From a virus (taxonomy: Duplodnaviria; Heunggongvirae; Uroviricota; Caudoviricetes): 64,000 nucleotides of DNA. Every line of letters starts with the position of its first letter. Position 1 is the first letter of the stretch. Under the pieces are notes generated by a model. It saw nothing but the letters and a program-made list of their open reading frames with translations. It searched no databases and was not told where the DNA came from. The stretch is taken from the IMG/VR virus record IMGVR_UViG_3300028591_000001, positions 115,547 through 179,546 of that record, one strand, 5' to 3'. Below are positions 3,011 through 52,602 of the stretch, one piece after another. The translations under genes and the position numbers were made by a program.

Positions 3011-3012
3011 AA

Positions 3013-3309: not shown

Positions 3310-5585
3310 CTATATCTAGGATTACTTGTTATATTCATTCCTGGAATATATCCAGTATTTATTTCTCCTTTAACTTCAAATTTATTTTGAGTAGGAATTA
3401 TTCCGTATCTCTTAACTCCTTTTTCATCAAAATAATAACCAATATCTCTAAGTCCTTGTCCAACAGGCTTATATTCTCTTGGAATAACATCATTTAATTC
3501 TTCATCTCCAACTTCAGCCATTTGACAGGCAGCTACCATATCAAATTTTCCTTTATTTTCGTCAGTATAAAGATTTAACTATTCTAAAAATTCTATAAAC
3601 CAAATATTATGACAGTAATCTTCTACATAGGAAGCAACTAAGTCAGTACCATGTTCAATCATAGCTGTAGTAGCTGTGGTACCATACTAGTTATTATTTC
3701 TTCTTCTTTCATCTCCTCCATAACAAGCTCTAGGACGTCTCATAAAGAAATGTGCGAATTTATTATCGCGAGCATAAGTTAAAACAGATAAACGAGTAGC
3801 TTCTATATTTGCTTTTGCCTGATAATACCATAACATTGCCATTGTTTGCTTGTAAGCATCTCTAATATCATCTGGTCTATCAAGATAATAAGCTACATAA
3901 GTTGGCTCCTTCATTCCATGTACTCTTCTTTTTATCATTGTACAGAATTTAGAAGGATCTCTGGTTTGAACAGAGGTTTCTGCCTAACCAATATCAATAC
4001 CGTCTATTCCAGCAACATATAGATTTTGTATTATGGGACTACCATCTTCCCATAAAGGATGCTCTAATATTCTAACTGGACCATTTGGATTAGGTTTAAA
4101 TCTAACTCCAGTGATATTCTCCCTTTTTCTTTCAGGTCCAGAATAAATAAATTCCATATATCCTCTCTAAATAGGAGGAGCCTATTTTTTAATTCTAATA
4201 GAAATTATTTGTTCAGCTATTTTAAGTTTATTAAATTTATTTACACCTTCAGCTGCAAAAGCTTCTTCTGCTGTAAAACATTGCTCCGCCTTATGCTCAA
4301 GAAGTGTCTGTGGATCAGTAATTTCTGCTCTTCTCTATTCATAATATTCTCTTTGTTTTTTCATCAAGTATTCGCCTCGACTTCCAACAAACTTAGAGTT
4401 ATTCATTGATATATAAGCAGGAATAAAGTAAGCAGTTTCTACCCAATCCCCATCTTCTGTATAATTATGTTTAAAAGGCAGAACCTAGAACATTTTAGGA
4501 TTATAATATACTTTTCTAAGTCCTTCAAGGTTTGGACCCGCGTCACCTCCCGTTCCTACTGCTGCAATAATTCCAATTTTATTACCACCAACAGTAACAA
4601 GTTCTTCAGCTTTTATGAATGATCTCTCTAAGATAGGATTAGAACCAGACTCTTCAAGAAATAAGAAACCTACACGGTCACCACGCATCTTTCTATCTTT
4701 GTCCACAACTATGCCTTCTATTTGAGACATAAAACCTGTTTCAATCTTTTGTCCATTTACTACTTTATAATGAGAAGCTCTTTTCTTAGTAGCAGTATTA
4801 ATTACCTATCTAAGTTTAAGCATTCCTCCCTAGGTATTATCATCAGTAAATGTTATTCCAGCATTTATCTTATCAAGAGTTTTCTTAACATAATTATCAT
4901 CAAATGCTGTGAGCAAACATATACTATTTTTAAAACAATTAAAAAAGTTATCAAATATAGAAGCATGTATTTCAGAAAATCCACAACCACGGTTTTTCAT
5001 TACTGTCATATTCTTCCTTAACTTTCTACATAATTCAAAATAGTGGAAGAATTCGTATTGATAAACAAAGAAACGAGGAAATATAATAGAACGACTATCA
5101 CCTGCAACATCTTGTTCTGTATTAGGTAATTGATAGTAGTTAAGAAAATAATAGTTAAATCCAGTAATAGTATAACCATTAACTGTCATTCCTTCCTTGC
5201 ATCTTCTATATTCTTCATTCCAGAAATCTCTATAAAGTTTAGAACCAGGGTAGTAAGAACAATATTGTTCAGTTTTTAAAAATGTTTCACGAGCTTCAGT
5301 AAACCAAGAAGGATCAAAGTCTAATCCTTCTGTTTCTGTTATTGGTTTATATCCAGTTAATTCATAAGAAAGTCTTTTATCAAAGTAAGGTACTGGATCG
5401 TCTATTTTAACATCCCATTCACCTTCTCGATGTTCTATAGTAGTCTCTGGTTTAATTTCTTCTATTTGCTGTTGAAGTTCTTCTTGTTTCTATTTAACCT
5501 CTTCAACTATAGATTTGACTTCCTCAGGAATTTCTGGTATAGGATTCTTACGTGGACGGCCTCTTTTCTTTTTAACCTCTTCCAT
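3306..5585 (-). CDS. Large late protein, about 760 aa, with at least 8 recoded TAG codons. Possibly the terminase large subunit: C-terminal DxD...E...D pattern, N-terminal KRGRPRK.
   Basis: ORFs 4830-5189, 4485-4730, 3687-3938 and 3306-3539 share one frame and are joined only by TAG. ATG at 5583-5585 (MEEVKKKRGRPRK). Motifs VAGIDGIDIG, SYVEDY and GKFDMVAA suggest an RNase H-like nuclease, but no Walker A was recognised. Confidence 0.4.
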
Positions 5586-5589
5586 TAAT

Positions 5590-14389: not shown

Positions 14390-14391
14390 AG

Positions 14392-14463
14392 TTGTCCCAC
14401 TAGGATTCGAACCCAGGCTAAAGGATTTAGAGTCCCCTGTACTGACCGTTATACTATAGGACA
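14392..14463 (-). tRNA. Suppressor tRNA with anticodon CUA (reads UAG), probably Gln-derived
   Basis: Cloverleaf: acceptor UGUCCUA/UGGGACA (U1-A72), D GUAU-AACGGUCA-GUAC, anticodon stem GGGGA/UCCUU, loop CUCUAAA (U33, C34-U35-A36, A37), T-arm CUGGG-UUCGAAU-CCUAG, discriminator A. Resembles the phage tRNA-Gln(UUG) at 34623. Confidence 0.8.
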
Positions 14464-22556: not shown

Positions 22557-22649
22557 AGCAGGTTGGTGTAATGGTCAACGTTAGTTGGTAGCTACTAATA
22601 CAACATATTCCTAAAAGGAATGATAAAGGTTCGAATCCTTTGCCTGCTG
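22557..22649 (+). tRNA. tRNA-like (93 nt) with good acceptor and T-arm, an extra ~20 nt, and no identifiable anticodon
   Basis: Acceptor AGCAGGT/GCCTGCT, T AAAGG-TTCGAAT-CCTTT. Interior carries TGGTAGCTACT. Confidence 0.35.
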
Positions 22650-22713
22650 CAAATTTAATTTTGATTTTTCATAAATTAAAATAAATTAAAAAATAAAAAT
22701 AATTTTTAATGTT

Positions 22714-24264
22714 ATGAAAATAATTCCAAAATTACAAACAGCATGGCAGCCATTATAGGTTGATAATACTAGAGTACAAAAACCTATGGTTATGTAGCCT
22801 ATAAAAAGAACTTTAAAACCTGGAGAAATGTTGTTAAATTTAGGAGGACAACAAACAGTAGTGACTCCAAAACAAACATATATTCAATAGGATAATCGTT
22901 CAGATAAATAGAGAAAATCAGATTAGAAATATGCTTAGCAGAAAAGAAAATAGATTGAATTAGATAAAGCATAGAAAAGAACTGGAGAAGTTGCTAGTGC
23001 TTTTTTAGAAAGAACAATGCCTTCTTATTGGGCTTAGTAGTTAACTAATGAATCTCTTAATCCAATATAGTAGTTTTTAATTGATGGATTTAGTCCAGGA
23101 AAAGTTATTAAAGGGGGATTAACTACTGCTGCTATATTAACAGCTCCAATTAGAGGACTTTCAAAAACAAAATTTGGAACTCATATTGTAGAAGAAGGAG
23201 GAAAAAAATTAATAGCAGAAAGGGTTCATCCTGAATGGTTTAGTGGAATATCTCCAGAATTATAGAAAGAAGCTGAAACATTTTTAAAAGAAGGATTAAC
23301 TAAAAGACCAATATTATATGAAGAAGTTAAAAATAATCCAGAATTAATGTAGTTTGTTAAAGATATTGCAGAAGGTAAAAATTAGGAAATTTTAGCAAGA
23401 TTTAATGAAACAAAAGTTGCTCCGAATTTAGGTTCTCTTATAGCACTAAAACAAACTGGATTACCTCAAACTAAACACGTAGTAATAGGTCAAAAAGGAC
23501 ATTCTCCAATTATAGGAGATTGGCATAATACAAAAAATATGGGTAATTATAATTATTTTGCTGGAGGAGAAAATGCTAAATGGGCAGCTGCTTAGTATGC
23601 TGATGTTGGCACCTTTGAACAAGCACATAATTTATTGATTAGTAGAGGTTTTACTCCTGGTTCTAAGTAGTATGAAACAGCTATGGAAGAATTTTCTAAA
23701 ATAATGGATATGCAAAAAGCTAAAGGAGTAAAAAGATTTGCTTATAAAGAGGGTGCTAAAGATAGAAGTGGAGGAGCTAAAAACTTTAGTTGGGAACATT
23801 TGATTACTAAAGGTCCCACAAAAAAGAAAATAGAATGGACTCCAGAAGAAAGAGATAACTATCTAGATGCATTAAAAAATTGGACAAATTTCTGGGGAAA
23901 AGATATAGAAAGTGGAGGTTCTAGACAAGTGATTGCTAGAGCTGATAGTCCTTTAGGATTTGCTACAATAGAAGCTAATGGAAGAAATTATAAGGAATTA
24001 GGAGGTTCTTATATAGAAATGCCTGGAATTTCTAGGCCAAATAAAATTGATGTTAATACTGATGCAAATAAATTAGGAAAGTAGTTAGAAAAATTAAAAA
24101 TTCCATTATTTAGAGTATCAGAAGTTGATGATCCAATAAGAATTAATACTCACGGTTCCTACGGATTACCAAGTACTAACACATGGTTTTTTCAACATAA
24201 AAAAGGAGGAAAATTAAATGAAAATAACAGAAGAAATGCGTTGGGTATGTTTAAAAGGATATGA
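22714..24264 (+). CDS. Late-type protein of about 516 aa with at least 15 recoded TAG codons. Function unknown.
   Basis: ATG 22714, frame traced through many TAG, including the one at 24082-24084, to TGA 24262-24264. ORF 23683-24084 is an internal fragment. Confidence 0.5.
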
Positions 24265-24359: not shown

Positions 24360-24929
24360 ATGGATATGAAGAATGGACAGATAATTGTGAAGAACAAGAA
24401 GTGTAAAGTTGAGAATATTCTTAAAGAATATCCAAATGCTGAAATTTTTGATGTGACCAGTAAAGGAGAATATAAAACTTTATCTCCTTTCTATCCACAT
24501 AATTCTATTCCTGTTCCATTTTCTGGTTCAGTAACTTCTCAATCTGTTGAAGGAATTTGGCAAGGTCTTAAAGTATTTGAACGTGAAGGAATAGACTTTT
24601 CTTGTTTTAATAATAAAACAATGAAAAATCTTAAAAGAACTGTTAAAACTCACGGTAGATGTCTTGGACATCAAAAAGGTTTAGGTTCTAAAGAACTTCT
24701 CGGATATATTGATGCGAGAAAAAATATTTATATTCCTTCTTATATGTGGATGCTCGAAAACAAATGTCAAAAAGAAATTGCATACTTTAAAAGTCTACTC
24801 AAAGAAGGAAAAATAATAGTTTTTCTGGACTATGATACAAATGAGAATGTAGAGGATGCTTTAAAACCTTTATCTCATGCATCTTTAATTAAAAAATATT
24901 TATTAAATGAAATACGAACAACAAATTGA
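24360..24929 (+). CDS. Hypothetical protein, 189 aa
   Basis: ORF track. Confidence 0.5.
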   Translation: MDMKNGQIIVKNKKCKVENILKEYPNAEIFDVTSKGEYKTLSPFYPHNSIPVPFSGSVTSQSVEGIWQGLKVFEREGIDFSCFNNKTMKNLKRTVKTHGRCLGHQKGLGSKELLGYIDARKNIYIPSYMWMLENKCQKEIAYFKSLLKEGKIIVFLDYDTNENVEDALKPLSHASLIKKYLLNEIRTTN

Positions 24930-26354: not shown

Positions 26355-26786
26355 ATGGAAATGAGAATTAATTTTACAAAAGACCACATGGCTCGTCTGG
26401 TAGACCTTGCAGACGCAGCATTGTTTGATAAAACAGTAGTGGTTACAAAACTAGGTCAGCAACTCAATATTTATGAGTTACTTCATATGACGTCAATTAA
26501 TCAACTTAATGAGATTAAAACAAGTCTTACTAAGAAGATTGAGAAAGTTGAAGCATCCGATGAATGGATTGCTCCAGATAATGATAAACTTCAGTCAATA
26601 AAAGATGCCAAGGAATTGGTAAATCTTATTATTGGTTGGAAGCGTTATAATCTGGAGTTGGATGAGAACGCTCGTAAGAAGGAAGAGCTTTCTAAGAAGC
26701 TTTCTGAACTGAAGGAATCTACAAAGACTCCAGAAGATCGAATTAAGGAACTTGAAGCTCAACTTAAAGAGTTAGAAGAATTCTAA
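26355..26786 (+). CDS. Coiled-coil protein, 143 aa
   Basis: ORF track. EELKxL heptads. Confidence 0.5.
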   Translation: MEMRINFTKDHMARLVDLADAALFDKTVVVTKLGQQLNIYELLHMTSINQLNEIKTSLTKKIEKVEASDEWIAPDNDKLQSIKDAKELVNLIIGWKRYNLELDENARKKEELSKKLSELKESTKTPEDRIKELEAQLKELEEF

Positions 26787-26789: not shown

Positions 26790-27583
26790 TAGTAGTACAA
26801 GGATTGAAAGTGTCCAGGTTTAAAGATTTCCTTATTGCTGATGATCAAGTGGTTGCCATGGTAATAGTGGTTCTAGGTGATGGCAAGTCCTAGACTAGCA
26901 ACAGCGACTGGCTCAGATAAACAATTGAAGGATTAAGTGTAATAACGCGCTACTATTATTTAAATCAGATTAGTTTTAATAAAATTTTAAAGAACAGATA
27001 TTCTGTGCGAGTATCGGGTTAGTGCAACCTCACACAGAAGAAAAATAATGGTTATTACCGTGACTATCTCCGCCAAATTGTAGGTAGAAGTACATGAGCA
27101 ACGAAAGCCTTGTCACCTACTCGGGAAAACGTGAAAGAATAGTTCTGTTCTTTAAATAATATAAGACTGAAGCTTGATATCGGGATAGCAATTAAAACCC
27201 GCTTTTCCTCTCTTGGAAGTAATGTTGGATAGATATAGCCCAATATTGTTATGAAGTAGAGATAAAACGGCTCGAAGCCACTCTTTTAAAAATAAAGGTA
27301 AACCAAAGAGCATACTCCAGATACGACAACAATACTCTAAGGAATTCCTTTTAAAAATAGGATTTACAGGTCAAAGAGAAGACGGATAATTGTGTAAATA
27401 ATAGAGGTTTAATGGCTCTACAAAACAAAACAGGGTTAAATAGCAAGTAGCACCGTAAATGCGAAATGGTTAGAGAGTAATCTCGGTAAGCCTTAAATAT
27501 GGTAAGGTACCCTTGAGTGAAGAACACGATCCTATTTGTTTTATGGCACAGAAGTTAGTTACTTACAAATTTAACAATTAATT
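26790..27583 (+). ncRNA. Candidate structured non-coding region (~0.8 kb, GC-richer, hairpin-rich) upstream of the Ro-like gene. Ends with the GTTACTTACAAAT module 15 nt before ATG 27584.
   Basis: No ORFs. Helices such as TTGCCAT...ATGGCAA and CTGTG...CACAG. Contains GTGACTATCTCC, related to other tRNA-like pieces. Confidence 0.3.
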
Positions 27584-29419
27584 ATGATTACAGTAGAATT
27601 AAACAAGAAAAATGAGAATCCATTTTATGGATGTAGTAACTGTTTGAAACTTATTGAACAAGCAGCAGGTAATGTGACTAATTCTATGCTCGATGCAGCA
27701 TGGAAAGAAGTTGCACAAGACCTAGAAAAGAAAAAGATGTTCTTCTCTATATTATTCTCTATTGGAGATATTACAGGAAGACAGCATAATATCTTTGGTA
27801 AGAAGAAGATAGATTCTGGTGGTAATGCCAACAGAGATTCTTTTAATACAATCTTCCATTGGTTGTGGAATAATAACAAGAATCAATTCATTAAGTTCAT
27901 GAATGCACAGTTGTTCAATGAATATACTTGTTTTGATTTCTTGTTCCAGAATCGTGTGAAGACCAAAGGTTCAAAAGTACTGAATGTATTCTCTGCTTAC
28001 AATGATCCTGAGTACAAGAAGGCTCTTCTTAACTATGTGTATTCTGTTATCAATGGCACTAATCCATTTAACAAAATGCTTGTGGCTAAGTTCTTGACTA
28101 TTCCTCGTACATCTAAGAGACAAGGTCATAAGAAAATGCTTCCTGAAACTCTTAAGATTATGAGAGAAAAGAAAGCTTTCTTGGAGGAATTGTCTAAGAT
28201 GATGGGTTGGGAGATTGAATATTTCAAAGGCTATCGTGAGTGGAGAAAGCAGTATAATGGTGAATTGGAATCTGTTCTGTTCTCTACTGGAAAGATTAAC
28301 GAATTTACTAAGGATGAATTCATTAGTTGGTTCGATAAACTTCCAGCACAGGCTCGTTTCAGAGTGAAGAATCGTATTCTTTATTCTAAAAAGAATGAAG
28401 ATATGAATGATGGTAATCGTGTTGTTGATTTATCCGATTCTGGATATAAATGGGCTAAGTTTCAACCTTGGTTGAAAGAATGGGAACAGTTCAAGGAGAA
28501 TAAGCAGCAAGAACAGAGAATTCTTGAAGAGAAAGTTCGTCAAGGACAAGCTACCGATGAAGATAAGATTAAACTTCAGAAAGTAAAGAAGGAAGCTAAA
28601 GTTACAACTGGTGCTACTAACTTTAATGAATTGTATCAATCGATTCTTAATGGTAATGTAGACAAGTTGAAACTTGAATCATTCATTCAGAATAAAGTTA
28701 ATTTACCATATAATAGTTTGGTAATTATTGACGATTCTGGAAGTATGGGTGGAGCTCCTTTCAACTTTGCAAAGTTTATTGCTTCGGTATGTCTTGTTAA
28801 GAATCCAGATGATGATGCTCGTAATCTGATTGGATTCTTCAATAGTCGTTCTCACTGGCACAGTTTCATTGATCAAACTTCTTCTCGTAAGAATAGTCTT
28901 CTTAGAACTCAAATTGCTCAAACTAATACTAAACCATTAGTTGATCCAAAATTGAGTTTCTATGATAACTACCAGAGAATTAGTAAATTCTGTGATGCTA
29001 CTTATCAAGGAGGTGGAACTCGATTGAATTCAATTCCACAAGGATTGGAATATATCATCCATGAGAATCCAGACATGCTTGATACTCTTAAGGAATATCC
29101 TATTTGGACAATTTGTTCAGATGGAGATCTAAATTCCTGTTGGAACGCTAAGTCAAGTATGTTAGAGTTCCAGAATGATTGTCGTCGTATTCTTGGGTTT
29201 GTTCCTTTTGTCGTAATGATTGAAATATATCGTTATGGACAACCTTCAATTAATCATTTTGAAGGAATTGAGAATATGATATATATTCCATCAAATCCTG
29301 CTCAGATTGAACAATTCTTAACCAACTTTAAGGATATGGATATCTTTGATGTTTATACTCCACTGTTGAGTCTGTATCGTTCAAATCGTTATCAATTAGT
29401 ACGTGAAAATACTCTTTGA
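27584..29419 (+). CDS. 611-aa protein with a C-terminal von Willebrand factor A domain (MIDAS DDSGSMGG, GGGT, SDG). Candidate Ro60/TROVE-like RNA-binding protein.
   Basis: vWA motifs seen directly. A ~360-aa N-terminal non-ATPase region is followed by the vWA domain, which is the Ro60/Rsr layout. Surrounded by tRNA-like RNAs. Confidence 0.6.
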   Translation: MITVELNKKNENPFYGCSNCLKLIEQAAGNVTNSMLDAAWKEVAQDLEKKKMFFSILFSIGDITGRQHNIFGKKKIDSGGNANRDSFNTIFHWLWNNNKNQFIKFMNAQLFNEYTCFDFLFQNRVKTKGSKVLNVFSAYNDPEYKKALLNYVYSVINGTNPFNKMLVAKFLTIPRTSKRQGHKKMLPETLKIMREKKAFLEELSKMMGWEIEYFKGYREWRKQYNGELESVLFSTGKINEFTKDEFISWFDKLPAQARFRVKNRILYSKKNEDMNDGNRVVDLSDSGYKWAKFQPWLKEWEQFKENKQQEQRILEEKVRQGQATDEDKIKLQKVKKEAKVTTGATNFNELYQSILNGNVDKLKLESFIQNKVNLPYNSLVIIDDSGSMGGAPFNFAKFIASVCLVKNPDDDARNLIGFFNSRSHWHSFIDQTSSRKNSLLRTQIAQTNTKPLVDPKLSFYDNYQRISKFCDATYQGGGTRLNSIPQGLEYIIHENPDMLDTLKEYPIWTICSDGDLNSCWNAKSSMLEFQNDCRRILGFVPFVVMIEIYRYGQPSINHFEGIENMIYIPSNPAQIEQFLTNFKDMDIFDVYTPLLSLYRSNRYQLVRENTL

Positions 29420-29443
29420 GTATTTTTGCATATATTCCAAGTT

Positions 29444-29482
29444 TGCTAGAGGAGAGATTTAATTCTCTCTTCTAGTTTTAGA
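29444..29482 (+). terminator. Rho-independent terminator
   Basis: GCTAGAGGAGAGA tttaatt TCTCTCTTCTAG followed by TTTTAG. Confidence 0.5.
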
Positions 29483-29534
29483 AGAAAAAGAATAAATCAT
29501 AATAGAAATGAATTAAAGATACTTACAATCTCAA

Positions 29535-29607
29535 ATTACATTAGCTCATTTGGTAGAGCACTAGATTGATAATCCAGGAGTAGCGAGTTCGATTCTCGTA
29601 TGTAGAC
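29535..29607 (+). tRNA. tRNA-Ile(GAU)
   Basis: D GCTC-ATTTGGTA-GAGC, anticodon stem CTAGA/TCCAG with loop TTGATAA, T GCGAG-TTCGATT-CTCGT, acceptor ATTACAT/ATGTAGA (A1-A72 mismatch). Flanked by AAAGATACTT...AAGTATCTTT. Confidence 0.65.
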
Positions 29608-29625
29608 CAGAAAGTATCTTTATTT

Positions 29626-29764
29626 GGGGAACTTGAGTAATGGTAAGCTCAAATTATATACGGGTAACCTAGGACAATCTTTTGATTTAGGGTTACCTAC
29701 AATATCATCATCTATAATTTTTCTAGGATTTCTAGAGATGTAAGTTCAAATCTTACGTTCCCCG
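29626..29764 (+). ncRNA. tRNA-like RNA (139 nt) with acceptor, D-arm, class-II variable hairpin and T-arm, but no anticodon loop. The anticodon region is replaced by the hairpin GGGTAACC...GGGTTACC-TACAAT.
   Basis: Acceptor GGGGAAC/GTTCCCC perfect with discriminator G. D GAGT-AATGGTAA-GCTC. T GTAAG-TTCAAAT-CTTAC. 8-bp helix AAATTATA/TATAATTT encloses the module hairpin. Confidence 0.5.
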
Positions 29765-29995
29765 CTAATCCAAACTATAACAATATTATTGACGTTCTTG
29801 ACATATGAATTGAAAGCAAACGTAGGTGCTTTAATTGCATTGGTAAACGTTAGGATAAATCAAGACCTAATACTAAGGAAGAAATTGTTATTTCTGTACA
29901 GAGTTTGGATTAAATTGCCAGGGTAACTCAATAAATTGATTTTAGTAATTTTATTAGTTACTTACAATACTATAGTTTTCAAAAAGGTTAGAGTA

Positions 29996-30045
29996 TTTGA
30001 TTGAAATTCAAAGAGTTGTTGGTTCGATTTCAACTCCGCCCACCA
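29996..30045 (+). pseudogene. tRNA-Phe(GAA)-like 3-prime portion (anticodon arm, T-arm, acceptor 3-prime strand, encoded CCA). No matching 5-prime acceptor or D-arm was found.
   Basis: TTTGA-TTGAAAT-TCAAA, T GTTGG-TTCGATT-TCAAC, TCCGCCC A CCA. Preceded by a closed module hairpin ending TACAAT at 29964-29969. Confidence 0.35.
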
Positions 30046-30127
30046 AATAAGTCGTGAGACTTTATGTCATTGTAATAAATGACCATACGCAGAAGTTTTA
30101 AATGACAGTCCGAAAAGACGGACACTT

Positions 30128-30263
30128 GAGGGGTTCGTCTAGTGGTTTAGGACACAGAAAAATATAAAATTTTACTAGTATCAGGCTGATACTTACTATA
30201 TCACAATTAAATTGAATATAGCAATCCAAGCCTGGAACAGAGGTTCGATTCCTTTACCCCTCA
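30128..30263 (+). ncRNA. tRNA-like RNA (136 nt) with perfect acceptor, D-arm and T-arm, and an 85-nt insert containing the module hairpin GTATCAG-G-CTGATACT-TACTAT in place of the anticodon arm
   Basis: Acceptor GAGGGGT/ACCCCTC, D GTCT-AGTGGTTTA-GGAC, T AGAGG-TTCGATT-CCTTT. Confidence 0.45.
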
Positions 30264-30266: not shown

Positions 30267-30465
30267 CTTGCCAACAAACGGTTATTTAATAAGTAATTAT
30301 AAATAAGACTGGAGAGTGAGGCGTAAGATCCCAGTATAAAACGCTCTTAAAATAAACTTTAGGATGATGCGAATAATAGTAACATCTAGTAAACCTAAGA
30401 CATCGTAACTTCAAAATTTGTTTATAATGAAAGTTTTAGCAAAGGTTCGATTCCTTTGGTTGGCA
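30267..30465 (+). other. Possible tRNA-like element with a ~130-nt insert (acceptor 6 of 7 pairs plus a canonical T-arm)
   Basis: GCCAACA ... AAAGG-TTCGATT-CCTTT GGTTGGC A. Confidence 0.25.
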
Positions 30466-30496
30466 CATTATAGAATATTAAATAAATTTAAACAAT

Positions 30497-31016: not shown

Positions 31017-32996
31017 ATGACATTAACAACATTAATTATTGTAGGAGTAATTGTCCTCCTAGTAATTTTGACAATTATTGGACTCTTGTCACGTTATCGT
31101 AAATGTCCAAGTGACCAACTTTTGGTAGTTTATGGTAAAGTTAGTGGTAAATCAGCTGCTAAAATTTATCCTGGTGGTGGTGTGTTTGTATGGCCCGTTA
31201 TTCAGGATTATAAGGTAATGTCTTTAAGACCTTTCCAAATTAACTCAGAAGTTGTAGGTCCAGACAGTGGTATGATCAGAACTCATGTTACTGTAGCTTT
31301 AACTACTGCTATTTCTCAAGATCCGACAATTCAGCAGAATGCTGCAGCTCGTTTCTTAAGTGCTAATTCTAATGAGATTGTTTCTCAGATTAAGACCATT
31401 CTTGAGGGTGAAGTAAGATTGATTATTGCTTCAATGTCAATTGAAGAAATTAATTCTGACCGAGATGCTTTCAAGACTAAGGTTAAGGATAGTTTAGGTA
31501 ATGAGTTAAACAAGGTTGGTTATGATATAACTAACATTAACATTCAAGAAATTACTGATGAAGCAGATTATATTAAGAATCTTGGAAAGAAGAAGGAAAC
31601 AGAGGCTAGAGCAAATGCAGAGGCTGATATTGCTGACAAGGAGAAAGACGGAGCAATTAGAAAGGCCAACATCAAGAAGGAACAAGAAATCCAAGTAGCA
31701 ACTGCTGATAAGGAAAGAGAAACTACTGTTTCTCAGACCAAACAGGAGCAGGCTGTTAAAGTAGCAGAGATTGAGAAGGAACAGGAGACTCAGATTGCTG
31801 AAACTCAGAAAGCTAAAGAGGTTCAACTGTCTGAAATTGAGAAAGACAAGCAAACCGGTATTGCTAATCAGAAAGCTCTCCAAGTAGCTGCTGTAGCAAG
31901 TGCTGATGCAGATGCAGAATCAAAGAAGGCAGAAGCAGAAGCAAGAAAGGTAGCAGCTGTAGCAGCTCAAAAAGCAAAAGCTGAATCAGAGAAAGCTAAG
32001 TCTGAATCAGAACAGAGAAAGGCCGTAGCAACTGCTGAAGCTGATGCTGAAGCTACTGAGAATGAGAAAGAAGCATTGATGCAAACTCGTATTGCTGAAG
32101 CTAATCAGAAGAAAGAAGCTGATATTGCTAAGGCAACTCAGGAGAAGGAAGCTAAGAAGGCAGAGTATGAGTCTGCTAAACAGATTCGCAAAGCTAAGGC
32201 TGATCAGGATGCAGGTGTAGCAGAACAGAATGCAAAGATTCTTGTAGCTCAAGCACGTGCAAAAGCAGGTCAAGCAGAAGCTGATGCTGATAAAACTGTA
32301 CAGGTTGCTAAGATTGAAGCAGATATGAAGGCTGCTAAGACTAAACAAGAACGTCAGTTGGAGGTTAACGAAGCTGAAGCTAAGGCAGTTGAAGCTAAGT
32401 TAAATGCTGAGCAGGTTGTTCCTGCAGAGCAGGCTAAGAAGAAGACCATTATCGAAGCAGAAGCTATTAAGGAACAAGCTGTCCTTGAAGCAGAAGCCGA
32501 GAAGCAACGTATTCTTAAAAAGGCTGAAGCAGACGCAGAGAAAGTTCGTTTGAACATGAATGCTGAAGCTGAAGGTATTAAGAATAAGAAACTTGCTGAA
32601 GCAGAGGGTCAGAAGGCTCTCTTGTTTGCAGAAGCAGAAGCTCTCCAGAAGAGAGAAATGGCTCCAGCACTTGCTCTACAGAAGATGGTTGAATCATTCG
32701 GTGGTAATCCAGATCTTCTTGTTCAGTACAAAATGGTTGACCAGTATAAGTCAATCGCTGAGGCTCAAGAGAAGATGCTCGAGCATATTCAGCTTGGTAA
32801 TGTCACTATTTATGGTGATAAGAACACTGGTGCTGACTTCGCTAAGAGCTTTATCAAGAACTTTACTCCTGCCCTTGACATTGTTAATGACGGATTCAAG
32901 GATAAGTTTAAAGAAGTATTTGGTCTAAAGAAGGCTGAGGAACTTCCTGATAATTCTGAGACTCCAGAGAATAAGGAATTTGATGAAGTGAAATAA
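31017..32996 (+). CDS. Flotillin or band-7 (SPFH) family protein (YqiK/FloT-like), 659 aa
   Basis: N-terminal TM, PSDQLLVVYGKVSG...GGVFVWPVIQDYKVMSLRPFQI SPFH core, long EA-rich coiled coil, C-terminal domain. Confidence 0.75.
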   Translation: MTLTTLIIVGVIVLLVILTIIGLLSRYRKCPSDQLLVVYGKVSGKSAAKIYPGGGVFVWPVIQDYKVMSLRPFQINSEVVGPDSGMIRTHVTVALTTAISQDPTIQQNAAARFLSANSNEIVSQIKTILEGEVRLIIASMSIEEINSDRDAFKTKVKDSLGNELNKVGYDITNINIQEITDEADYIKNLGKKKETEARANAEADIADKEKDGAIRKANIKKEQEIQVATADKERETTVSQTKQEQAVKVAEIEKEQETQIAETQKAKEVQLSEIEKDKQTGIANQKALQVAAVASADADAESKKAEAEARKVAAVAAQKAKAESEKAKSESEQRKAVATAEADAEATENEKEALMQTRIAEANQKKEADIAKATQEKEAKKAEYESAKQIRKAKADQDAGVAEQNAKILVAQARAKAGQAEADADKTVQVAKIEADMKAAKTKQERQLEVNEAEAKAVEAKLNAEQVVPAEQAKKKTIIEAEAIKEQAVLEAEAEKQRILKKAEADAEKVRLNMNAEAEGIKNKKLAEAEGQKALLFAEAEALQKREMAPALALQKMVESFGGNPDLLVQYKMVDQYKSIAEAQEKMLEHIQLGNVTIYGDKNTGADFAKSFIKNFTPALDIVNDGFKDKFKEVFGLKKAEELPDNSETPENKEFDEVK

Positions 32997-33047: not shown

Positions 33048-33171
33048 AGGTTACTTACAATAACGTATTATACATTGATGGTTCGATTCCATCTTTTGGC
33101 TCCATTTTTTGCCGAAATCGCTCAATGGTAGAGCATCAAATTTGTAATTTGACGTAATTATTTAGTAACCT
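33048..33171 (+). ncRNA. Circularly permuted tRNA-Thr(UGU) unit, enclosed by an 8-bp inverted repeat: 3-prime quarter (T-arm, acceptor 3-prime strand, U, CCA), then TTTTTT, then acceptor 5-prime strand, D-arm and anticodon arm
   Basis: AGGTTACT-TACAAT ... GATGG-TTCGATT-CCATC TTTTGGC T CCA TTTTTT GCCGAAA TC GCTC-AATGGTA-GAGC A TCAAA-TTTGTAA-TTTGA ... AGTAACCT. The acceptor halves pair at 7 of 7 positions with one G-U. Confidence 0.5.
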
Positions 33172-33203: not shown

Positions 33204-33334
33204 AAGATACTTACAAAATATTGAATTGTATTCAATGAATTGCGGGTTCGAATCCCGTCTTACCTTATGGTATGTGGTGGAACGGTAAACACGTTGGATT
33301 AATCATCCGATTTCGATAAAAAACATAAGTATCT
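33204..33334 (+). ncRNA. Module-flanked unit with a Thr-like anticodon arm (ATTGA-ATTGTAT-TCAAT), T-arm and acceptor 3-prime strand, followed by a degenerate acceptor/D-arm-like segment. Possibly a permuted or decayed tRNA.
   Basis: AAGATACTT-ACAAA ... GCGGG-TTCGAAT-CCCGT CTTACCT T ... AAGTATCTT. Confidence 0.3.
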
Positions 33335-33341
33335 TTTAAAT

Positions 33342-33457
33342 GAGGGAATTGGTGTAATGGTAACACACGTAGCTTTTGTATCTTTTGATACATACAATAT
33401 CATTATGCGATGAATTGTGGTTTTCCGTGTTCTAGGTTCGAGTCCTAGGTTCCCTCC
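33342..33457 (+). ncRNA. tRNA-like RNA (116 nt) with acceptor, D-arm and T-arm, and the module hairpin TGTATC-TTTT-GATACA-TACAAT in place of the anticodon arm
   Basis: Acceptor GAGGGAA/TTCCCTC, D GGTG-TAATGGTAA-CACA, T CTAGG-TTCGAGT-CCTAG. Confidence 0.45.
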
Positions 33458-33820: not shown

Positions 33821-33952
33821 CATCTTTTAACTATAACATCTAAAAAATAAAAAATAAGTTTAAAGTCTAAGATACTTACAATTTTTATTTGAATTTTGCC
33901 ATAAATTAAGAACAACATGATAAAAAAAATAAAATTTAAGTATCTTTTTAAT

Positions 33953-34548
33953 GGCTCCATGTCGGAATTGGTATACGAGTCAGACTGGACTAAAGACTAT
34001 AATTTGGTCTTAAATATAGGTTGCTATGGCGAGAAATCCCATAGTAGAATCTCCCTAAAACGGTGGAAGTCCTCAGAAGTGGGAGTAAGTTGTGTGAGAT
34101 ATATACATTCACACCACCTAAACAATAATGGTGGAGGATAATACCGTGCTAAATTGAGATAAGGATGAAGAAGTCCTCCAAATAGCCAAAGTTGGATATG
34201 ATTCTACATTGACCGAATCAATCTCATAAATGTGTAGAGAGTATATAGGAGATACCTAAGTTGAAATTATACCTCATATACGTGTCCATAAGATTGTAAA
34301 AACAGTAAATGGGCAGCCATTTAATCGGAATGAGACTTGCAAGAATTTCAATATTGGTAAAGATGTATTCCAGACCACAACAAACAAAAACTTGCATTAA
34401 CATCTTTGAAGGGTGAAATCAGATAGAAGTTAAAAACTTGCTCAGTTTTAAACGACAAAATGTGTTTGTTTGGCTATGGCAACATAGAGTGGTAAGTAAA
34501 ATCTGATGGGCTGAATAGCCTGTGAGGGTTCAAGTCCCTCTGGAGCTA
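33953..34548 (+). tRNA. tRNA-Leu(UAA), class II, interrupted in the anticodon loop after U33 by a ~510-nt insertion (33987-34496) that is a candidate group I intron
   Basis: Exons: GGCTCCA TG TCG-GAATTGGTATA-CGA G TCAGA CU | UAAAA UCUGA, variable hairpin GGCT-GAAT-AGCC, T GAGGG-TTCAAGT-CCCTC, TGGAGCT, discriminator A. The insertion follows a U and ends in G. Confidence 0.55.
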
Positions 34549-34700: not shown

Positions 34701-34828
34701 TAAGTTACTTACAATATTAATAATAATTAATATACTTATAACTCAAAAGTATCAGTGGTTCGAATCCATTATTTTCTATCATTTGGAAAATTAGCATAGT
34801 GGTTTAATGCAATTAATTTAAAGTAACT
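34701..34828 (+). ncRNA. Inverted-repeat-enclosed permuted tRNA-like unit: T-arm and acceptor 3-prime strand, then TCATTT, then acceptor 5-prime strand and D-arm. A 6-bp hairpin with a 9-nt loop (ATACTT-ATAACTCAA-AAGTAT) sits in the anticodon position.
   Basis: AAGTTACTT-ACAAT ... AGTGG-TTCGAAT-CCATT ATTTTCT A TCATTT GGAAAAT TA GCAT-AGTGGTTTA-ATGC A ... AAGTAACTT. Confidence 0.4.
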
Positions 34829-34833
34829 TTTAT

Positions 34834-34922: not shown

Positions 34923-35219
34923 CAAATAAACCTAACACCGAGAGCAACGATCCTTATATTAAATATCCGGATGAAAACTAGTTGATATATGTGAGTCGGG
35001 TCGGTTAGTTTAGCATAAGTCGAAAGTTTATGTGAAGAGTTTAGGTTTATTTAATATCGCAGTGAGAATTGGTATTCAAGAGGGTCTCATAAGCCTTCCT
35101 CCGAGGATTCGATTTCCTCCGCTGCAAGGACACATAATCAAAACCTCCACGTGGTGTGTCTGGGTAATGCTAATTTGATTAGATAATTTATTTAATTTAA
35201 TTTATTTAGAATTGAATTA

Positions 35220-35870: not shown

Positions 35871-35918
35871 ATTTAACTGCAACAATTATTCAACTTAAGC
35901 GCATAATAAGATACTTAC

Positions 35919-35995
35919 AATAATAAAATGATGTTTAGTTCATTTGGTTAGAACGATTTCTTTTCATGAAATAAGTAACAAGTTCGAGTCTTGTA
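35919..35995 (+). tRNA. tRNA-Glu(UUC) with encoded CCA
   Basis: Acceptor TGATGTT/AATATCA, D GTTC-ATTTGGTTA-GAAC, anticodon stem ATTTC/GAAAT with loop TTTTCAT, T ACAAG-TTCGAGT-CTTGT, G CCA. Flanked by AAGATACTT...AAGTATCTT. Confidence 0.75.
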
Positions 35996-36096
35996 ATATC
36001 AGCCAGAAGTATCTTTTTTAATCAACCAATTGAAATAATTGGATATTTACAAATAAATTATAAATTAGGTATAAACTTTTATTTTTATTTCATTAG

Positions 36097-47198: not shown

Positions 47199-47415
47199 TT
47201 TTTAAAACATGGAAATAGATTTTAATAAATATAATTGCTTTATAGCAGAATGTTATGAGGCGGAAGATGAATTCTGGAAAGGAATTTATGAAGATATTGA
47301 AGCTGATTATTGGATAAATGAAAATAAAAATAATTTTTGATTTTTTAACAACTATAAATAATATTAACTGTTAATAGTAGATAGTTCAAATTTTTAACGT
47401 TAAAAATCAAAATTT

Positions 47416-48741
47416 ATGAATAAATTAGTTTCAAAAAACCCGGTTTAGAGATTTAAAAAGGGTAGAAAAATTATTAAAGCACAAAAGAGTTGGGGAAAGG
47501 GATTTGGAATTGAAAATTCTGGAAAAATTTTTGGATCTTTGAATACTTTAGGGTATGAAAACCCAAATATAGGTAATAATTTTTCTATTGGAACCTCTGC
47601 AAGATTTTTGGGATATAATCCTCCAGAAACTTAGGGAAATATGCTTTATAATATTCCAAGTAGTTAGGAAGAATCAAAATCATTTACTAATGAAGTTGTG
47701 GATAAATCTGTATCTAATGAAGAACCTATTAATAATAAAATCGAAAAAAAAGGTAAAAAAATATAGAAAAAAGGTATAAATCCAAATAGGTTTGTCTCTA
47801 TTTATGATGATAAAAATAGAACTTGGACAACACATGCTGCAGATAATAAACTTACTAATAGAGACTAGGTAAAAGCTTTTTAGAGAGATGTTCTTAAAAT
47901 GGGAGAAGCTTCTGATGGAATTTGGGGAAAAAATACTGAAGCTGCTTATTAGAAATATTTAACGTCAAAACAAACAGCTCCTACTGTTTCTTATACTCCA
48001 GTAGTTGAAAAAAATGGAGTATTTACTCCTACAGAAAAGACTACTACAGATGTTAATGTAGCAAGAGATTATTTATTAACTCCAAAACAAGAAACTCCTA
48101 CATTTAATCTTGGAACTTATGTTGGAAGTGATCCTACAAGAACATATAATGCAGGAAATATTAGAGCTAATAGAGGAAATTTATATTCTAATGTAGACGA
48201 ATATTGGAATTATTTAAGTAATAATAAAAATTCTGATGATTTTTAGTTATTCCAAAATATTATGGGAACATAGGATGGAAATCTAAATAGAGAAGCATTT
48301 AATGCTACAATGGCTAATTATGGTATTTCTGGAAATCTTGGAAGAAGAGATTCTGGAAGACTTGCAAATTTATTAAATGATTTAAGAGCTATTGGAACAA
48401 AAGGCTCTGATGCTAGAAATGCTTTTCTAAACTCATATAAATAGAGTTTTGATAATGTACAGACTGGAGTAGGAAATACTATATATAATCGTTCAGCCAC
48501 AAGAGACTGGTTAAGAAATAATGCTGGAGGTTCAGCATATGCTTTTACTGGTGATTAGAGAAAAGCTGTAAGAAATATATTAAATGGTTAGGGAACAGAT
48601 CAAGATAAAGAATTAATTAAAGGAAACTCTGTTTTAGCAAAAGCATTAACAGGTTATTTTAAAACAGGAGGAAATATATTGCCATCTAGAAATATTATTG
48701 AAAGATTTAAACAAAGAAATTTTAGAATAGTGGCTCAGTAA
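47416..48741 (+). CDS. Late virion-type protein (~441 aa, at least 18 recoded TAG) with a peptidoglycan-binding (PG_binding_1-like) motif
   Basis: ATG 47416, many in-frame TAG, TAA at 48739. V-K-A-F-[TAG]-R-D-V-L and A-A-Y-[TAG]-K-Y-L place TAG at the conserved Gln positions of the LQxxL and FQ motifs, around DGIWGKNT. Confidence 0.55.
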
Positions 48742-50515: not shown

Positions 50516-50592
50516 AGTGCTGTATAGACTCTCCCTGATAAGGAGTTGAAATCTTAGTTGGTCACACGTAGGTTCAAATCCTACCAGCACTA
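50516..50592 (+). tRNA. Non-canonical tRNA-like RNA with no recognisable D-arm: 7-bp acceptor, then TA, then a 4-nt stem strand, an anticodon-like hairpin (loop CTGATAA), a GTTGGTCACAC segment and a T-arm
   Basis: AGTGCTG ... GTAGG-TTCAAAT-CCTAC CAGCACT A. Paralogous to 50599-50675. Confidence 0.35.
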
Positions 50593-52508: not shown

Positions 52509-52602
52509 GGGAAGGTAACGGCTTTAGTCTGTAAAACTAAACTGCATTAACAAATTGTCGTAGTGGACTCGCAGTAAATAGGTTCGAATCCTATTCTTCC
52601 CA
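52509..52602 (+). tRNA. tRNA-Tyr(GUA)-like, non-canonical: the anticodon hairpin follows acceptor-TA-ACGGC directly, and a 38-nt stem-loop with a D-like GTCG-TAGTGGAC lies before the T-arm
   Basis: GGGAAGG TA ACGG C TTTAGT-CTGTAAA-ACTAAA ... ATAGG-TTCGAAT-CCTAT TCTTCCC A. Confidence 0.35.

What the first reader, a model, noticed from the sequence alone, without database searches (positions are those of the whole stretch)
26790..30263. Candidate Ro60-like (vWA-domain) protein next to tRNA-like RNAs that lack anticodon arms; possible Ro/Y-RNA-like module
27584-29419 encodes a 611-aa protein whose C-terminus is an unmistakable vWA domain (DDSGSMGG...GGGT...SDG) behind a ~360-aa non-ATPase N-terminal region, which is the Ro60/Rsr layout. 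Downstream lie tRNA-shaped RNAs (29626-29764, 30128-30263, 33342-33457) that keep the acceptor, D-arm and T-arm but replace the anticodon arm with the conserved bulged helix. Bacterial Y RNAs are tRNA mimics bound by Ro through a conserved bulged helix. The 0.8-kb hairpin-rich non-coding stretch upstream (26790-27583) could hold further RNAs.
Basis: inference. Interest (0 to 1): 0.85.

Follow-up and report, generated by a model that had tools for sequence, protein, structure and literature searches.

The report
Phage Ro-like protein with tRNA mimics
A large gut or rumen phage encodes a protein built like the Ro60 RNA-quality-control protein, next to tRNA-shaped RNAs that all carry one short helix "handle"; this looks like an undescribed, very divergent viral form of the Ro/Y-RNA particle, but binding has not been shown.

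Summary
The ORF, its vWA/MIDAS domain and the three tRNA-shaped RNAs are real. The 0.8-kb upstream stretch is not structured or conserved.

Their Rfam YrlA scores are below threshold (26.7 and 22.7 bits here; 42.4 bits beside a 25%-identical homologue).

The same module (covarying stem, ACUU/AAGU, unpaired ACAA) also brackets tRNA-Ile and tRNA-Glu, sits inside the D-loop of another tRNA-like gene, and encloses the start codon of the vWA gene in many relatives.

Linkage of protein and module holds across lineages down to about 21-35% identity.

Best reading: a divergent Ro/Y-RNA-like RNP system whose protein recognises the module. The main rival is that the module is a generic expression or processing signal. 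Verdict: new variant of a known kind.

The parts
26355..26786 (+). 143-aa coiled-coil-like ORF, the only neighbour conserved next to the vWA gene across relatives (candidate partner, function unknown)
   Evidence: tblastn synteny: directly upstream in L002-L012, and directly downstream of the gene in L013 at 33% identity. Only weak coiled-coil matches.
27556..27642 (+). Module hairpin at the 5' end of the vWA mRNA. The 5' strand UAGUUACUU (27556-27564) plus ACAA (27565-27568) pairs with AGUAACUG (27635-27642, codons 18-20). The start codon 27584 lies in the loop.
   Evidence: MFE fold. The same arrangement, with covarying stems, occurs in about 16 of 30 distinct relatives' loci (GUUACU/AGUAAC, UUUACU/AGUAAA, UUCACU/AGUGAA, ACGUUACU/AGUAACGA), with the 3' strand at different codons.
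27584..29419 (+). 611-aa protein: basic alpha-helical N-domain (1-372, pI 9.5) plus C-terminal vWA domain with complete MIDAS (D383-x-S385-x-S387, T479, D513)
29446..29479 (+). Ordinary hairpin plus T-run after the ORF (CTAGAGGAGAGA-tttaa-TTCTCTCTTCTAG-TTTT), probably the terminator of the protein gene
   Evidence: read directly from the sequence; not reported by the simple terminator scan
29516..29620 (+). Cassette: module stem AAGAUACUU/AAGUAUCUU bracketing canonical tRNA-Ile(GAU) 29535-29608, followed by a T-run
29626..29764 (+). tRNA-like RNA b1: acceptor, D-arm, closed module hairpin (GGGUAACCUA.../...UAGGGUUACC with one bulged G) plus UACAAUAUCA, a second hairpin, T-arm
   Evidence: orthologue L004 13829-13950
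29917..30045 (+). tRNA-like gene (anticodon loop UUGAAAU = GAA, T-arm, ...ACCA) with a closed module (AGUAAUUU-uau-UAGUUACU plus UACAA, 29944-29972) inserted in the D-loop. The acceptor pairing is broken in this copy but intact in L002, L004 and L005.
   Evidence: (partial tRNA hit, 23.6 bits). Orthologues carry other anticodons (CAU, GCU).
30128..30263 (+). tRNA-like RNA b2: acceptor, D-arm, closed module hairpin AGUAUCA-ggc-UGAUACU plus UACUAUAUCA, T-arm
   Evidence: orthologue L004 10725-10858
33048..33171 (+). Permuted tRNA-like RNA a1 (YrlA topology). Order: 5' strand AGGUUACU plus UACAA, T-arm, acceptor 3' strand, UCCA plus U6 loop, acceptor 5' strand, D-arm, full anticodon arm (UGU), 3' strand AGUAACCU, T-run.
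   Evidence: Rfam YrlA 26.7 bits, E 0.0015-0.028, below the gathering score of 69
33204..33335 (+). Permuted tRNA-like RNA a2: module stem AAGAUACUU/AAGUAUCUU, two anticodon-arm-like hairpins, T-arm, closed acceptor, D-arm
   Evidence: Rfam YrlA 22.7 bits
33343..33457 (+). tRNA-like RNA b3: acceptor, D-arm (GUGUAAUGGUAACAC), closed module hairpin UGUAUC-uuuu-GAUACA plus UACAAUAUCA, second hairpin, T-arm
   Evidence: Rfam tRNA 36.2 bits with a 47-nt insertion; orthologues in L002, L003 (two), L007, L010, L011, L013, L015
33869..33946 (+). Short cassette: module stem AAGAUACUU/AAGUAUCUU around about 60 A/U-rich nt that include the ATG of ORF 33917-34141
   Evidence: orthologous cassettes L004 11706-11780 and L006 11447-11516
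34702..34829 (+). Permuted tRNA-like RNA a3: module stem AAGUUACUU/AAGUAACUU, nested mini-hairpin, T-arm, closed acceptor, D-arm, no anticodon arm
   Evidence: orthologues L004 12566-12687 and L006 13264-13385
35908..36015 (+). Cassette: module stem AAGAUACUU/AAGUAUCUU bracketing canonical tRNA-Glu(UUC) 35929-36005, followed by a T-run

Best explanation
The locus encodes a very divergent viral counterpart of the Ro60/Y-RNA ribonucleoprotein.

Shown:
- The 611-aa protein has a basic helical domain followed by a Ro60-type MIDAS vWA domain.
- The RNAs have tRNA-like, covarying structures.
- The module exists, covaries, and is genomically linked to the protein family.

Inferred: the protein binds phage-encoded, tRNA-derived RNAs through one conserved RNA module. 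The module is a covarying helix whose top four pairs are ACUU/AAGU, followed by unpaired ACAA. It occupies the place of the Ro-binding stem of Y RNAs, either as the paired 5' and 3' ends of a permuted tRNA-like RNA (YrlA topology) or as a closed hairpin replacing the anticodon arm.

Inferred: because the same module brackets two real tRNAs and encloses the start codon of the protein's own gene, the protein probably also captures some pre-tRNAs and represses its own translation.

Speculative purpose, by analogy with bacterial Rsr/Y RNA/PNPase and with Thermus phage phiLo Ro60 (which damps host PNPase): to protect or quality-control phage tRNA-type RNAs against host ribonucleases.
For: Protein:
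- Confident model (pLDDT 90.5).
- Best PDB match is Ro60, with twice the aligned length of plain vWA domains.
- The vWA domain is Ro60-like by hhalign (E 8e-7) and by profile search of the PDB.
- The N-domain is basic across the family (median pI 9.57, with 10 conserved K/R columns).

RNAs:
- Permuted family: 21 of 24 pairs change on both sides.
- Closed family: 17 of 22 pairs change on both sides.
- YrlA model hits of 26.7 and 22.7 bits in the window and 42.4 bits (E 2.8e-6) 1.7 kb from a 25%-identical homologue.

Module:
- 58 of 99 exact ACTTACAA sites have a complement of at least 8 of 9 bases downstream, against 3-4 in controls.
- Many compensatory stem variants.

Specificity in the window:
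- Among about 60 plus-strand genes, only the vWA gene and one small ORF carry the module.
- Only 2 canonical tRNAs carry it, and none in the 50-59 kb tRNA region.

Own mRNA: the start codon lies in the module loop in about 16 of 30 distinct loci. Stems covary, and the 3' strand is re-created at different codons.

Linkage:
- The gene lies next to such RNAs in all relatives fetched, down to 21-35% identity.
- Reverse search: 11 of 23 module-bearing IMG/VR hits have the gene within the few kb fetched, against 0 of 36 ordinary tRNA-Val hits.

Precedent: phage Ro60 with adjacent Y-like RNAs (PMC12135203, PMC4201824).
Against: - No TROVE similarity in the N-domain by any sequence, profile or fold test of that domain alone.
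- The closest viral folds are DUF7788/vWA proteins of unknown function. A crAss-like TROVE protein matches only at TM 0.36-0.39.
- The RNAs miss the YrlA gathering score and lack the CGAA motif.
- The module is not confined to the tRNA mimics.
- UACAAU resembles a -10 hexamer, it sits 5-13 nt before the tRNA 5' ends, and the 3' strand is usually followed by a T-run. A promoter/terminator or processing role would therefore explain much without the protein.
- Linkage may partly reflect shared ancestry and synteny.
- Alignments A3 and A4 were assembled with pairing filters, which inflates the percentage paired (though not the variety of compensatory pairs).
- No binding or expression data.
Confidence: 0.45

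Rival explanations
1. The module is a generic expression or processing signal of this phage group, and the vWA protein has nothing to do with it. UACAAU would act as a -10-like promoter box for a host or phage sigma factor. The 5'/3' pairing plus T-run would act as terminator, stabiliser or RNase processing stem. Together they package small genes as autonomous cassettes. The odd tRNA-like RNAs would be by-products of recombination between these repeated modules in tRNA arrays.
For: - The motif reads TACAAT, TATAA or TAGAAT in different lineages.
- It lies 5-13 nt upstream of mature tRNA 5' ends.
- T-runs follow most 3' strands.
- Short 'empty' cassettes of 50-78 nt exist.
- The module also precedes two ORFs.
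- The window copy of the D-loop-insert gene has a broken acceptor.
- Orthologous units differ in anticodon as if shuffled.
Against: - Stem covariation, including in closed hairpins inside covarying tRNA-like RNAs, requires the 5' strand to be transcribed. That is incompatible with a start site downstream of UACAAU as the only promoter use.
- Only 1-2 of about 60 plus-strand genes and 2 of about 27 tRNAs in the window carry it, so it is not a general promoter or terminator.
- The tRNA-like families are conserved with intact, compensated helices over wide divergence, unlike debris.
- The module is linked to the vWA gene.
Confidence: 0.3
2. The non-canonical RNAs are precursors of real tRNAs: permuted, interrupted or two-piece genes, as in red and green algae and Archaea. 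They would be matured by cleavage at the module and ligation (or by assembly in trans), then opened at the acceptor loop by RNase P and 3' processing. The vWA protein could be a cofactor or unrelated.
For: - Many permuted units keep a perfect 7-nt anticodon loop with U33 and a purine at 37. Orthologues carry different anticodons: GAA, CGA and GUG in one set, UGU and CAU in another.
- About 6 of 22 have NCCA immediately after the acceptor 3' strand, followed by a U-rich spacer and then the 5' strand.
- U8, A14, G18G19 and the T-loop are conserved.
- The module sits at sites where tRNAs tolerate insertions: the ends, the D-loop, and the variable or anticodon region.
Against: - No bulge-helix-bulge motif, and no splicing endonuclease or RNA ligase found among the window ORFs scanned.
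- Several units (a3 and the b-type RNAs) have no anticodon arm at all.
- The anticodons present duplicate canonical tRNAs of the same phage.
- YrlA-type Y RNAs also keep tRNA tertiary elements without being tRNAs (PMC4201824).
Confidence: 0.15
3. The protein is a vWA protein with a non-RNA role, such as an assembly co-chaperone or an anti-defence or host-interaction factor like other viral vWA/DUF7788 proteins. It merely lies in the phage's tRNA-rich early region.
For: - The best full-length viral fold matches are vWA/DUF7788 proteins of unknown role.
- No TROVE signal.
- vWA proteins serve many functions in phages (PMC7824862).
Against: - The N-domain is strongly basic throughout the family.
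- The module is conserved on its own mRNA.
- It is linked to module RNAs across lineages with different GC content and ribosome-binding-site type.
- No MoxR-type ATPase partner lies nearby.
Confidence: 0.1

Closest known systems
Bacterial Ro60 (Rsr) with YrlA-type Y RNAs (Rfam RF02553; Chen et al. 2014, PMC4201824)
   Same: - Protein with a helical domain followed by a MIDAS vWA domain, and Ro60 is the best PDB fold match.
- RNA genes lie beside the protein gene.
- The RNAs have a permuted tRNA-like domain (T-arm, closed acceptor-like hairpin, D-arm) and a stem formed by the 5' and 3' ends with a conserved short motif just inside it.
   Different: - No detectable TROVE domain.
- The RNAs score 23-42 bits against a gathering score of 69.
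- The conserved motif is UACAA after an ACUU/AAGU helix, not the CGAA bulge.
- Many units keep a true anticodon arm.
- A second, non-permuted topology exists.
- The module also occurs on real tRNAs and on the protein's mRNA.
Thermus phage phiLo Ro60 with Yrl1/Yrl2 (PMC12135203; PDB 9KOP, 9L5Y), and the TROVE proteins of mycobacteriophages and some jumbo phages (PMC4201824, PMC7824862)
   Different: phiLo Ro60 is a recognisable TROVE protein with a doughnut of HEAT repeats, and its Yrl RNAs are simple stem-bulge-stem RNAs with CGAA. Here the N-domain is unrecognisable as TROVE and the RNAs are tRNA-derived and numerous.
Viral vWA/DUF7788-type proteins (e.g. Acinetobacter phage vB_AbaM_ME3 A0A172Q0K1, Pithovirus LCPAC304, CroV E3T4S5)
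   Same: Best full-length structural matches among viral models (Foldseek E 1e-10 to 1e-12, TM 0.5-0.69): the same two-domain build.
   Different: No Pfam DUF2828/DUF7788 hit in any of the 69 family members at E <= 0.01. The function of those proteins is unknown, and no RNA partners have been described for them as far as the papers searched show.
Circularly permuted, split and multiply interrupted tRNA genes of algae and Archaea
   Same: The 3' half is encoded before the 5' half. Insertions occur at several positions of the tRNA. A helix formed by the flanks sits at the junction. CCA is present between the halves in some units.
   Different: No bulge-helix-bulge motif. This is a bacterial-type phage context. 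Several units lack an anticodon arm. Processing has not been shown.

Membership tests
Ro60 / TROVE (Pfam PF05731) | TROVE domain recognisable by sequence or profile in the N-terminal ~350 aa | tested here: not met
   - No Pfam hit for the window protein at E <= 10.
- No TROVE hit in any of 69 relatives at E <= 0.01.
- The family profile against the PDB aligns only positions 375-435 to TROVE proteins.
- hhalign against human, Xenopus and Deinococcus Ro60 aligns only vWA residues 377-577.
Ro60 / TROVE (Pfam PF05731) | C-terminal vWA domain with MIDAS motif | tested here: met
Ro60 / TROVE (Pfam PF05731) | HEAT-repeat toroid closed by the vWA domain (ring with a central hole) | tested here: inconclusive
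Ro60 / TROVE (Pfam PF05731) | Binds Y RNA and misfolded RNA | not testable with these tools
   Indirect only: basic N-domain and genomic linkage to the RNAs.
YrlA Y RNA (Rfam RF02553) | Reaches the family's gathering score (69 bits) | tested here: not met
   26.7 bits (33060-33161) and 22.7 bits (33218-33322). Best among relatives: 42.4 bits, E 2.8e-6, at L014 3189-3293.
YrlA Y RNA (Rfam RF02553) | Permuted tRNA-like domain (T-arm, closed acceptor-like stem, D-arm) enclosed by a 5'-3' terminal stem | tested here: met
   26 units from the window and 11 loci: 96.8% of cells paired, 21 of 24 pairs with changes on both sides, covariation 0.73 against 0.17 for shuffles. MFE folds.
YrlA Y RNA (Rfam RF02553) | Conserved Ro-binding helix with the CGAA-containing bulge | tested here: not met
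   The conserved element here is ACUU/AAGU plus unpaired ACAA (UAUAA in L012, UAGAA in L014). The CGAA motif is as described in PMC12135203.
YrlA Y RNA (Rfam RF02553) | Encoded next to a Ro60 orthologue | tested here: inconclusive
   The RNAs are encoded within 0.1-7 kb of the vWA gene in all relatives fetched, but the protein's orthology to Ro60 is unproven.
DUF2828/DUF7788 vWA proteins | Pfam match to DUF2828 or DUF7788 | tested here: not met
   No such hit in 69 members at E <= 0.01.
DUF2828/DUF7788 vWA proteins | Same two-domain fold | tested here: met
   Foldseek BFVD: DUF7788 proteins of CroV and a myovirus at E 1.6e-10 and 4e-10 over about 650 columns, TM 0.41-0.56. Unnamed vWA proteins reach TM 0.69.
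Permuted / interrupted tRNA genes | 3' half before 5' half with a complete anticodon arm and CCA between the halves | tested here: inconclusive
   Met in a1 and several orthologues. Not met in a3 or the b-type RNAs, which have no anticodon arm.
Permuted / interrupted tRNA genes | Bulge-helix-bulge processing motif and a splicing endonuclease or ligase | tested here: not met
   The junction is a plain 8-10-bp helix with an asymmetric A/U-rich loop. No endonuclease or ligase family was found in the neighbouring ORFs scanned.

The most novel reading that the evidence does not exclude
A single protein-recognised RNA handle (covarying stem, ACUU/AAGU, ACAA) is grafted onto tRNA scaffolds at every position a tRNA tolerates: outside the acceptor, in the D-loop, and in the anticodon or variable region. 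It occurs in both circular permutations. The anticodons switch between close relatives. The handle is also placed on the binding protein's own mRNA. On this reading the system is a programmable phage RNP that presents tRNA decoys, or two-piece or permuted tRNAs, to counter host anticodon nucleases or exonucleases, with autoregulated expression. Its protein would be either an unrecognisably diverged Ro60 or an independent invention on a Ro-type vWA domain.
Probability: 0.2. Interest if true: 0.9.

Novelty: new variant of a known kind. Interest (0 to 1): 0.72.

Why it matters
Ro60/Y-RNA particles are known from animals, some bacteria and a few phages, always with a recognisable TROVE protein. 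Here a protein family seen so far only in metagenomes (159 representatives at 50% identity; no Pfam, PHROG or cultured-phage match for the window protein) combines a Ro-type vWA domain with a new basic domain. It is tied to dozens of tRNA-derived RNAs that share one recognition-like module.

If the protein binds that module:
- The Ro/Y-RNA principle extends to abundant gut and rumen phages.
- There is a clean natural example of one RNA architecture used in two circular permutations.
- It points to a new way for phages to guard or disguise their tRNAs.
- The defined 13-nt-plus-helix element and the small set of RNAs are directly testable by EMSA, CLIP and metatranscriptomics.

If it does not bind, the cassettes are still an undescribed way of organising phage small-RNA genes.

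Tried and rejected
- Megablast of 26-34 kb and tblastn of the protein against INPHARED phages: no match.
- PHROGs and PADLOC: nothing for the protein.
Three distant single queries found nothing in IMG/VR. Distant loci were obtained with the look-up of encoding contigs instead.
- ARAGORN with introns calls b1 as tRNA-Arg with a 49-nt intron and b3 as tRNA-Lys with a 23-nt intron. I rejected these calls because they need unpaired 'variable arms' and ignore the covarying hairpin.
- Reading the motif simply as a promoter was my first idea. I downgraded it once the 5' flank was seen to covary with a downstream partner.
- Terminal inverted repeats of a mobile element: rejected, because the variable outer bases differ between copies yet stay complementary.
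- A bulge-helix-bulge reading of the junctions: no such geometry.
- The pattern scan of IMG/VR was contaminated by ordinary tRNA-Val(UAC), whose anticodon loop reads CUUACAA. I used those hits as the negative control.
- Upstream 0.8 kb as an RNA reservoir: z-score 0.02, no conservation.
- Literature searches for DUF2828 and for the 2016 RNA-repair survey gave nothing usable.

Full report
CONTEXT

The window is AT-rich (30.7% GC) and phage-like. It carries 28 ARAGORN tRNAs, including a CUA suppressor. Its relatives are metagenomic contigs of about 145-183 kb from rumen and gut samples. No cultured phage in INPHARED matches the region or the protein.

THE PROTEIN

- ORF 27584-29419 encodes 611 aa. 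Alone it has no Pfam, PHROG, PADLOC or PDB sequence match.
- It belongs to a sizeable uncharacterised family. A word-index search gave 1272 hits, the top ones at 69-93% identity. An exhaustive search gave 159 representatives at 50% clustering, 135 of them at E <= 1e-10.
- In a 69-member alignment the MIDAS residues D383, S385, S387, T479 and D513 are invariant. Five members reach Pfam VWA_2. The vWA observation is therefore correct.
- The family profile finds only six PDB sequences at E <= 1, and four of them are Ro60/TROVE proteins. In all of these only the start of the vWA domain aligns.
- hhalign of the family against human, Xenopus and Deinococcus Ro60 aligns only the vWA domain: probability 91.6%, E 8.3e-7. 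The Ro60 sequences were verified against the PDB first.
- Among viral models, the best full-length matches are vWA/DUF7788 proteins of unknown function (TM 0.5-0.69). A crAss-like 'TROVE domain-containing protein' matches more weakly (E 2.9e-7, TM 0.36-0.39).
- The N-domain is basic in every member (median pI 9.57), with ten conserved K/R columns. The vWA domain is acidic.

Conclusion on the protein: a Ro60-like build and a Ro60-type vWA domain are supported. TROVE membership was tested and not met.

The three loci (29626-29764, 30128-30263, 33343-33457) each have a 7-bp acceptor stem, a D-arm and a T-arm. Between them lies a hairpin followed by UAC(A/U)AUAUCA and then a second hairpin. Homologues occur in L002, L003 (two), L004 (two), L007, L010, L011, L013 and L015. 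On a 13-sequence core alignment, 99% of cells pair and 17 of 22 pairs change on both sides. The covariation score is 0.81 against 0.22 for shuffles and 0.09-0.16 for slid partners. They are conserved structured RNAs, not pseudogenes. ARAGORN's intron solutions for two of them are unconvincing.

An E-value Rfam scan gives YrlA hits at 33060-33161 (26.7 bits) and 33218-33322 (22.7 bits), below the 69-bit gathering score. These are circularly permuted tRNA-like RNAs. The order is: 5' strand, leader, T-arm, acceptor 3' strand, short loop, acceptor 5' strand, D-arm, then the 3' strand pairing with the 5' end. A third copy is at 34702-34829. Relatives hold many more. On 26 units, 21 of 24 pairs change on both sides, 96.8% of cells pair, and 0 of 500 shuffles reach this. 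The units were collected with pairing filters, so the percentage paired is inflated. The variety of compensatory pairs is not.

Many units also keep a perfect anticodon arm (U33, purine 37) whose anticodon differs between orthologues: GAA, CGA and GUG in one set, UGU and CAU in another. About six have NCCA right after the acceptor 3' strand.

THE SHARED MODULE

All these RNAs share one element: five variable, covarying pairs, then ACUU/AAGU, then unpaired ACAA on the 5' side.

- Of 99 exact ACTTACAA sites in the window and 12 loci, 58 have a complement of at least 8 of 9 bases 25-200 nt downstream. Controls with the variable 5-mer reversed or shuffled give 3-4.
- Stem variants include GAUAC/GUAUC, GUUAC/GUAAC, GUCAC/GUGAC, GACAC/GUGUC, GGUAC/GUACC, GCUAC/GUAGC and ACCU/AGGU.
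- The module also brackets canonical tRNAs: Ile 29516-29620 and Glu 35908-36015 in the window, and Asn, Ser, Gln, Thr and Leu in relatives.
- It forms short 50-78-nt cassettes.
- It is inserted in the D-loop of a further tRNA-like gene at 29917-30045. That gene is intact in L002, L004 and L005, again with different anticodons.
- It encloses the start codon of the vWA gene itself. In the window, 27556-27564 pairs with 27635-27642. In about 16 of 30 distinct loci the same hairpin exists with covarying stems and with the 3' strand at different codons (3-20), which argues for repeated selection for the pairing.
- Within the window the module is confined to 27.5-36 kb. About 60 other plus-strand genes and the tRNA region at 50-59 kb lack it.

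LINKAGE ACROSS LINEAGES

Every relative fetched, from 90% down to 21-35% protein identity, has tRNA or non-canonical tRNA-like genes within a few kb of the gene. These relatives span GC contents of 27-45% and include genomes with and without Shine-Dalgarno sites.

- L013 (35% identity) has nine ACTTACAA sites and the hairpin on the gene start.
- L015 and L016 have UACAA-type cassettes.
- L014 (25% identity) has two permuted units with a different motif (UAGAA). One scores 42.4 bits (E 2.8e-6) with the YrlA model.

In the reverse direction, I scanned IMG/VR for ACTTACAA near a T-loop. The 36 hits that are ordinary tRNA-Val(UAC) anticodon loops never have the gene in the fetched locus. Of 23 hits with a module stem, 11 do, although many of those loci are only 2-7 kb long. 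Shared ancestry limits the independence of these counts.

The only protein-coding neighbour conserved with the gene is the 143-aa coiled-coil ORF 26355-26786. It lies upstream in L002-L012 and downstream in L013.

THE UPSTREAM 0.8 KB

26790-27555 has no ORF longer than 59 aa. It folds no better than shuffles (z 0.02) and has no Rfam hit of note. It aligns to relatives only in two short blocks, one a small hairpin plus T-run at about 27264-27296. Only its last 30 nt, the module, matter.

MECHANISM

The best-supported reading is a divergent Ro/Y-RNA-like system. A basic-domain plus Ro-type-vWA protein recognises the stem-ACAA module. That module sits where the Ro-binding stem of Y RNAs sits: the 5'-3' stem with a conserved 4-nt motif, which is CGAA in canonical Y RNAs (PMC12135203). 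The module on the gene's own start suggests autoregulation. The module on selected pre-tRNAs suggests capture of tRNA-type RNAs.

The purpose is inferred only by analogy with Rsr/Y RNA/PNPase (PMC4201824) and with phiLo Ro60, which attenuates host PNPase (PMC12135203). It would be protection or quality control of phage tRNA-type RNAs against host nucleases. I put this reading at 0.45.

- Main rival (0.30): the module is a generic promoter-like (UACAAU), terminator or processing signal, and the protein is a bystander. Against it: the stem covaries, so the 5' strand must be in the RNA, and the module is rare among the genes and tRNAs of the same genome.
- Second rival (0.15): the odd RNAs are precursors of real tRNAs matured at the module. 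The intact, switching anticodon loops and the CCA favour it. The anticodon-less units and the lack of a BHB motif, endonuclease or ligase count against it.
- Third rival (0.10): the protein has a non-RNA vWA role.

COMPARISON AND NOVELTY

Phage-encoded Ro60 with adjacent Y-like RNAs is known (PMC4201824, PMC7824862, PMC12135203), so the kind is known. Five things are new here:
- a protein family without a recognisable TROVE domain;
- a different recognition-like motif;
- the coexistence of both circular permutations of the same tRNA-like architecture;
- retention and switching of anticodon arms;
- reuse of the module on true tRNAs, inside a D-loop and on the protein's own mRNA.

I rate it a new variant of a known kind, with interest 0.72. 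Nothing here shows binding or expression. The decisive experiments are listed separately.

Noticed in passing
window 14391-14463 (-), 867-5588 (-), 22690-24264 (+), 47404-48741 (+): A tRNA with anticodon CUA (called tRNA-Pyl by ARAGORN) lies next to minus-strand genes. These genes become long frames only if TAG is read through (760 and 736 codons; two plus-strand frames as well). The phage seems to recode TAG in part of its genes. The vWA ORF has no in-frame TAG.
   Followed up: partly
orthologous permuted units: L002 12679-12796, L004 11015-11129, L006 10821-10933; window 33048-33171 versus L004 10864-10983: Otherwise conserved tRNA-like RNAs carry different anticodons in a perfect 7-nt loop (GAA, CGA and GUG in one set; UGU and CAU in the other), as if the anticodon were swapped or under diversifying selection.
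   Followed up: partly
window 30270-30467: A roughly 198-nt element with a possible acceptor pairing TGCCAAC/GTTGGCA and a good T-arm (T-loop at 30445), but no evident D-arm or module. Parts are conserved in L004 at a different position. Nature unknown.
   Followed up: no
window 22454, 22557-22650, 50516-50592, 51156, 52509-52602, 53601: Further T-arm-containing elements that ARAGORN does not call or calls as 'tRNA-???'. 22557-22650 has the same GUGUAAUGGU D-arm as the b-type RNAs and an internal UACUAAUACAA. Two others pass the Rfam tRNA threshold only weakly (34-35 bits).
   Followed up: no
window 35127-35193: A weak hit to the HDV-like ribozyme family of F. prausnitzii (25.3 bits, gathering score 44) begins at the last bases of tRNA-Met 35057-35128.
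   Followed up: no
window 52683-53345 and 57174-57746: PD-(D/E)XK and HNH endonuclease ORFs sit among the tRNA genes of the 50-59 kb region, which lacks the module entirely. They are probably homing endonucleases.
   Followed up: no
window 24360-24929 and 31017-32996: A DUF6939 protein (E 3e-66, weakly NADAR-like) lies upstream, and a 659-aa SPFH/Band-7 protein lies between the two RNA clusters. The SPFH gene is shared only with L005, so it is not part of the conserved unit.
   Followed up: partly
IMG/VR hits L018-L136: The module core CUUACAA is identical to the anticodon loop of tRNA-Val(UAC) with A31, so pattern searches for it pick up ordinary tRNA-Val genes (36 of 125 matches). L010 8926-9042 even carries such a Val-type anticodon arm inside a permuted unit.
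   Followed up: partly
b-type RNAs: L003 12535, L007 9292, L011 8743, L013 3842: The second hairpin, just before the T-arm, has a loop containing GGGAG or GGAGG in several lineages (a Shine-Dalgarno-like sequence). The window copy b3 has GGUUUUCC instead.
   Followed up: no
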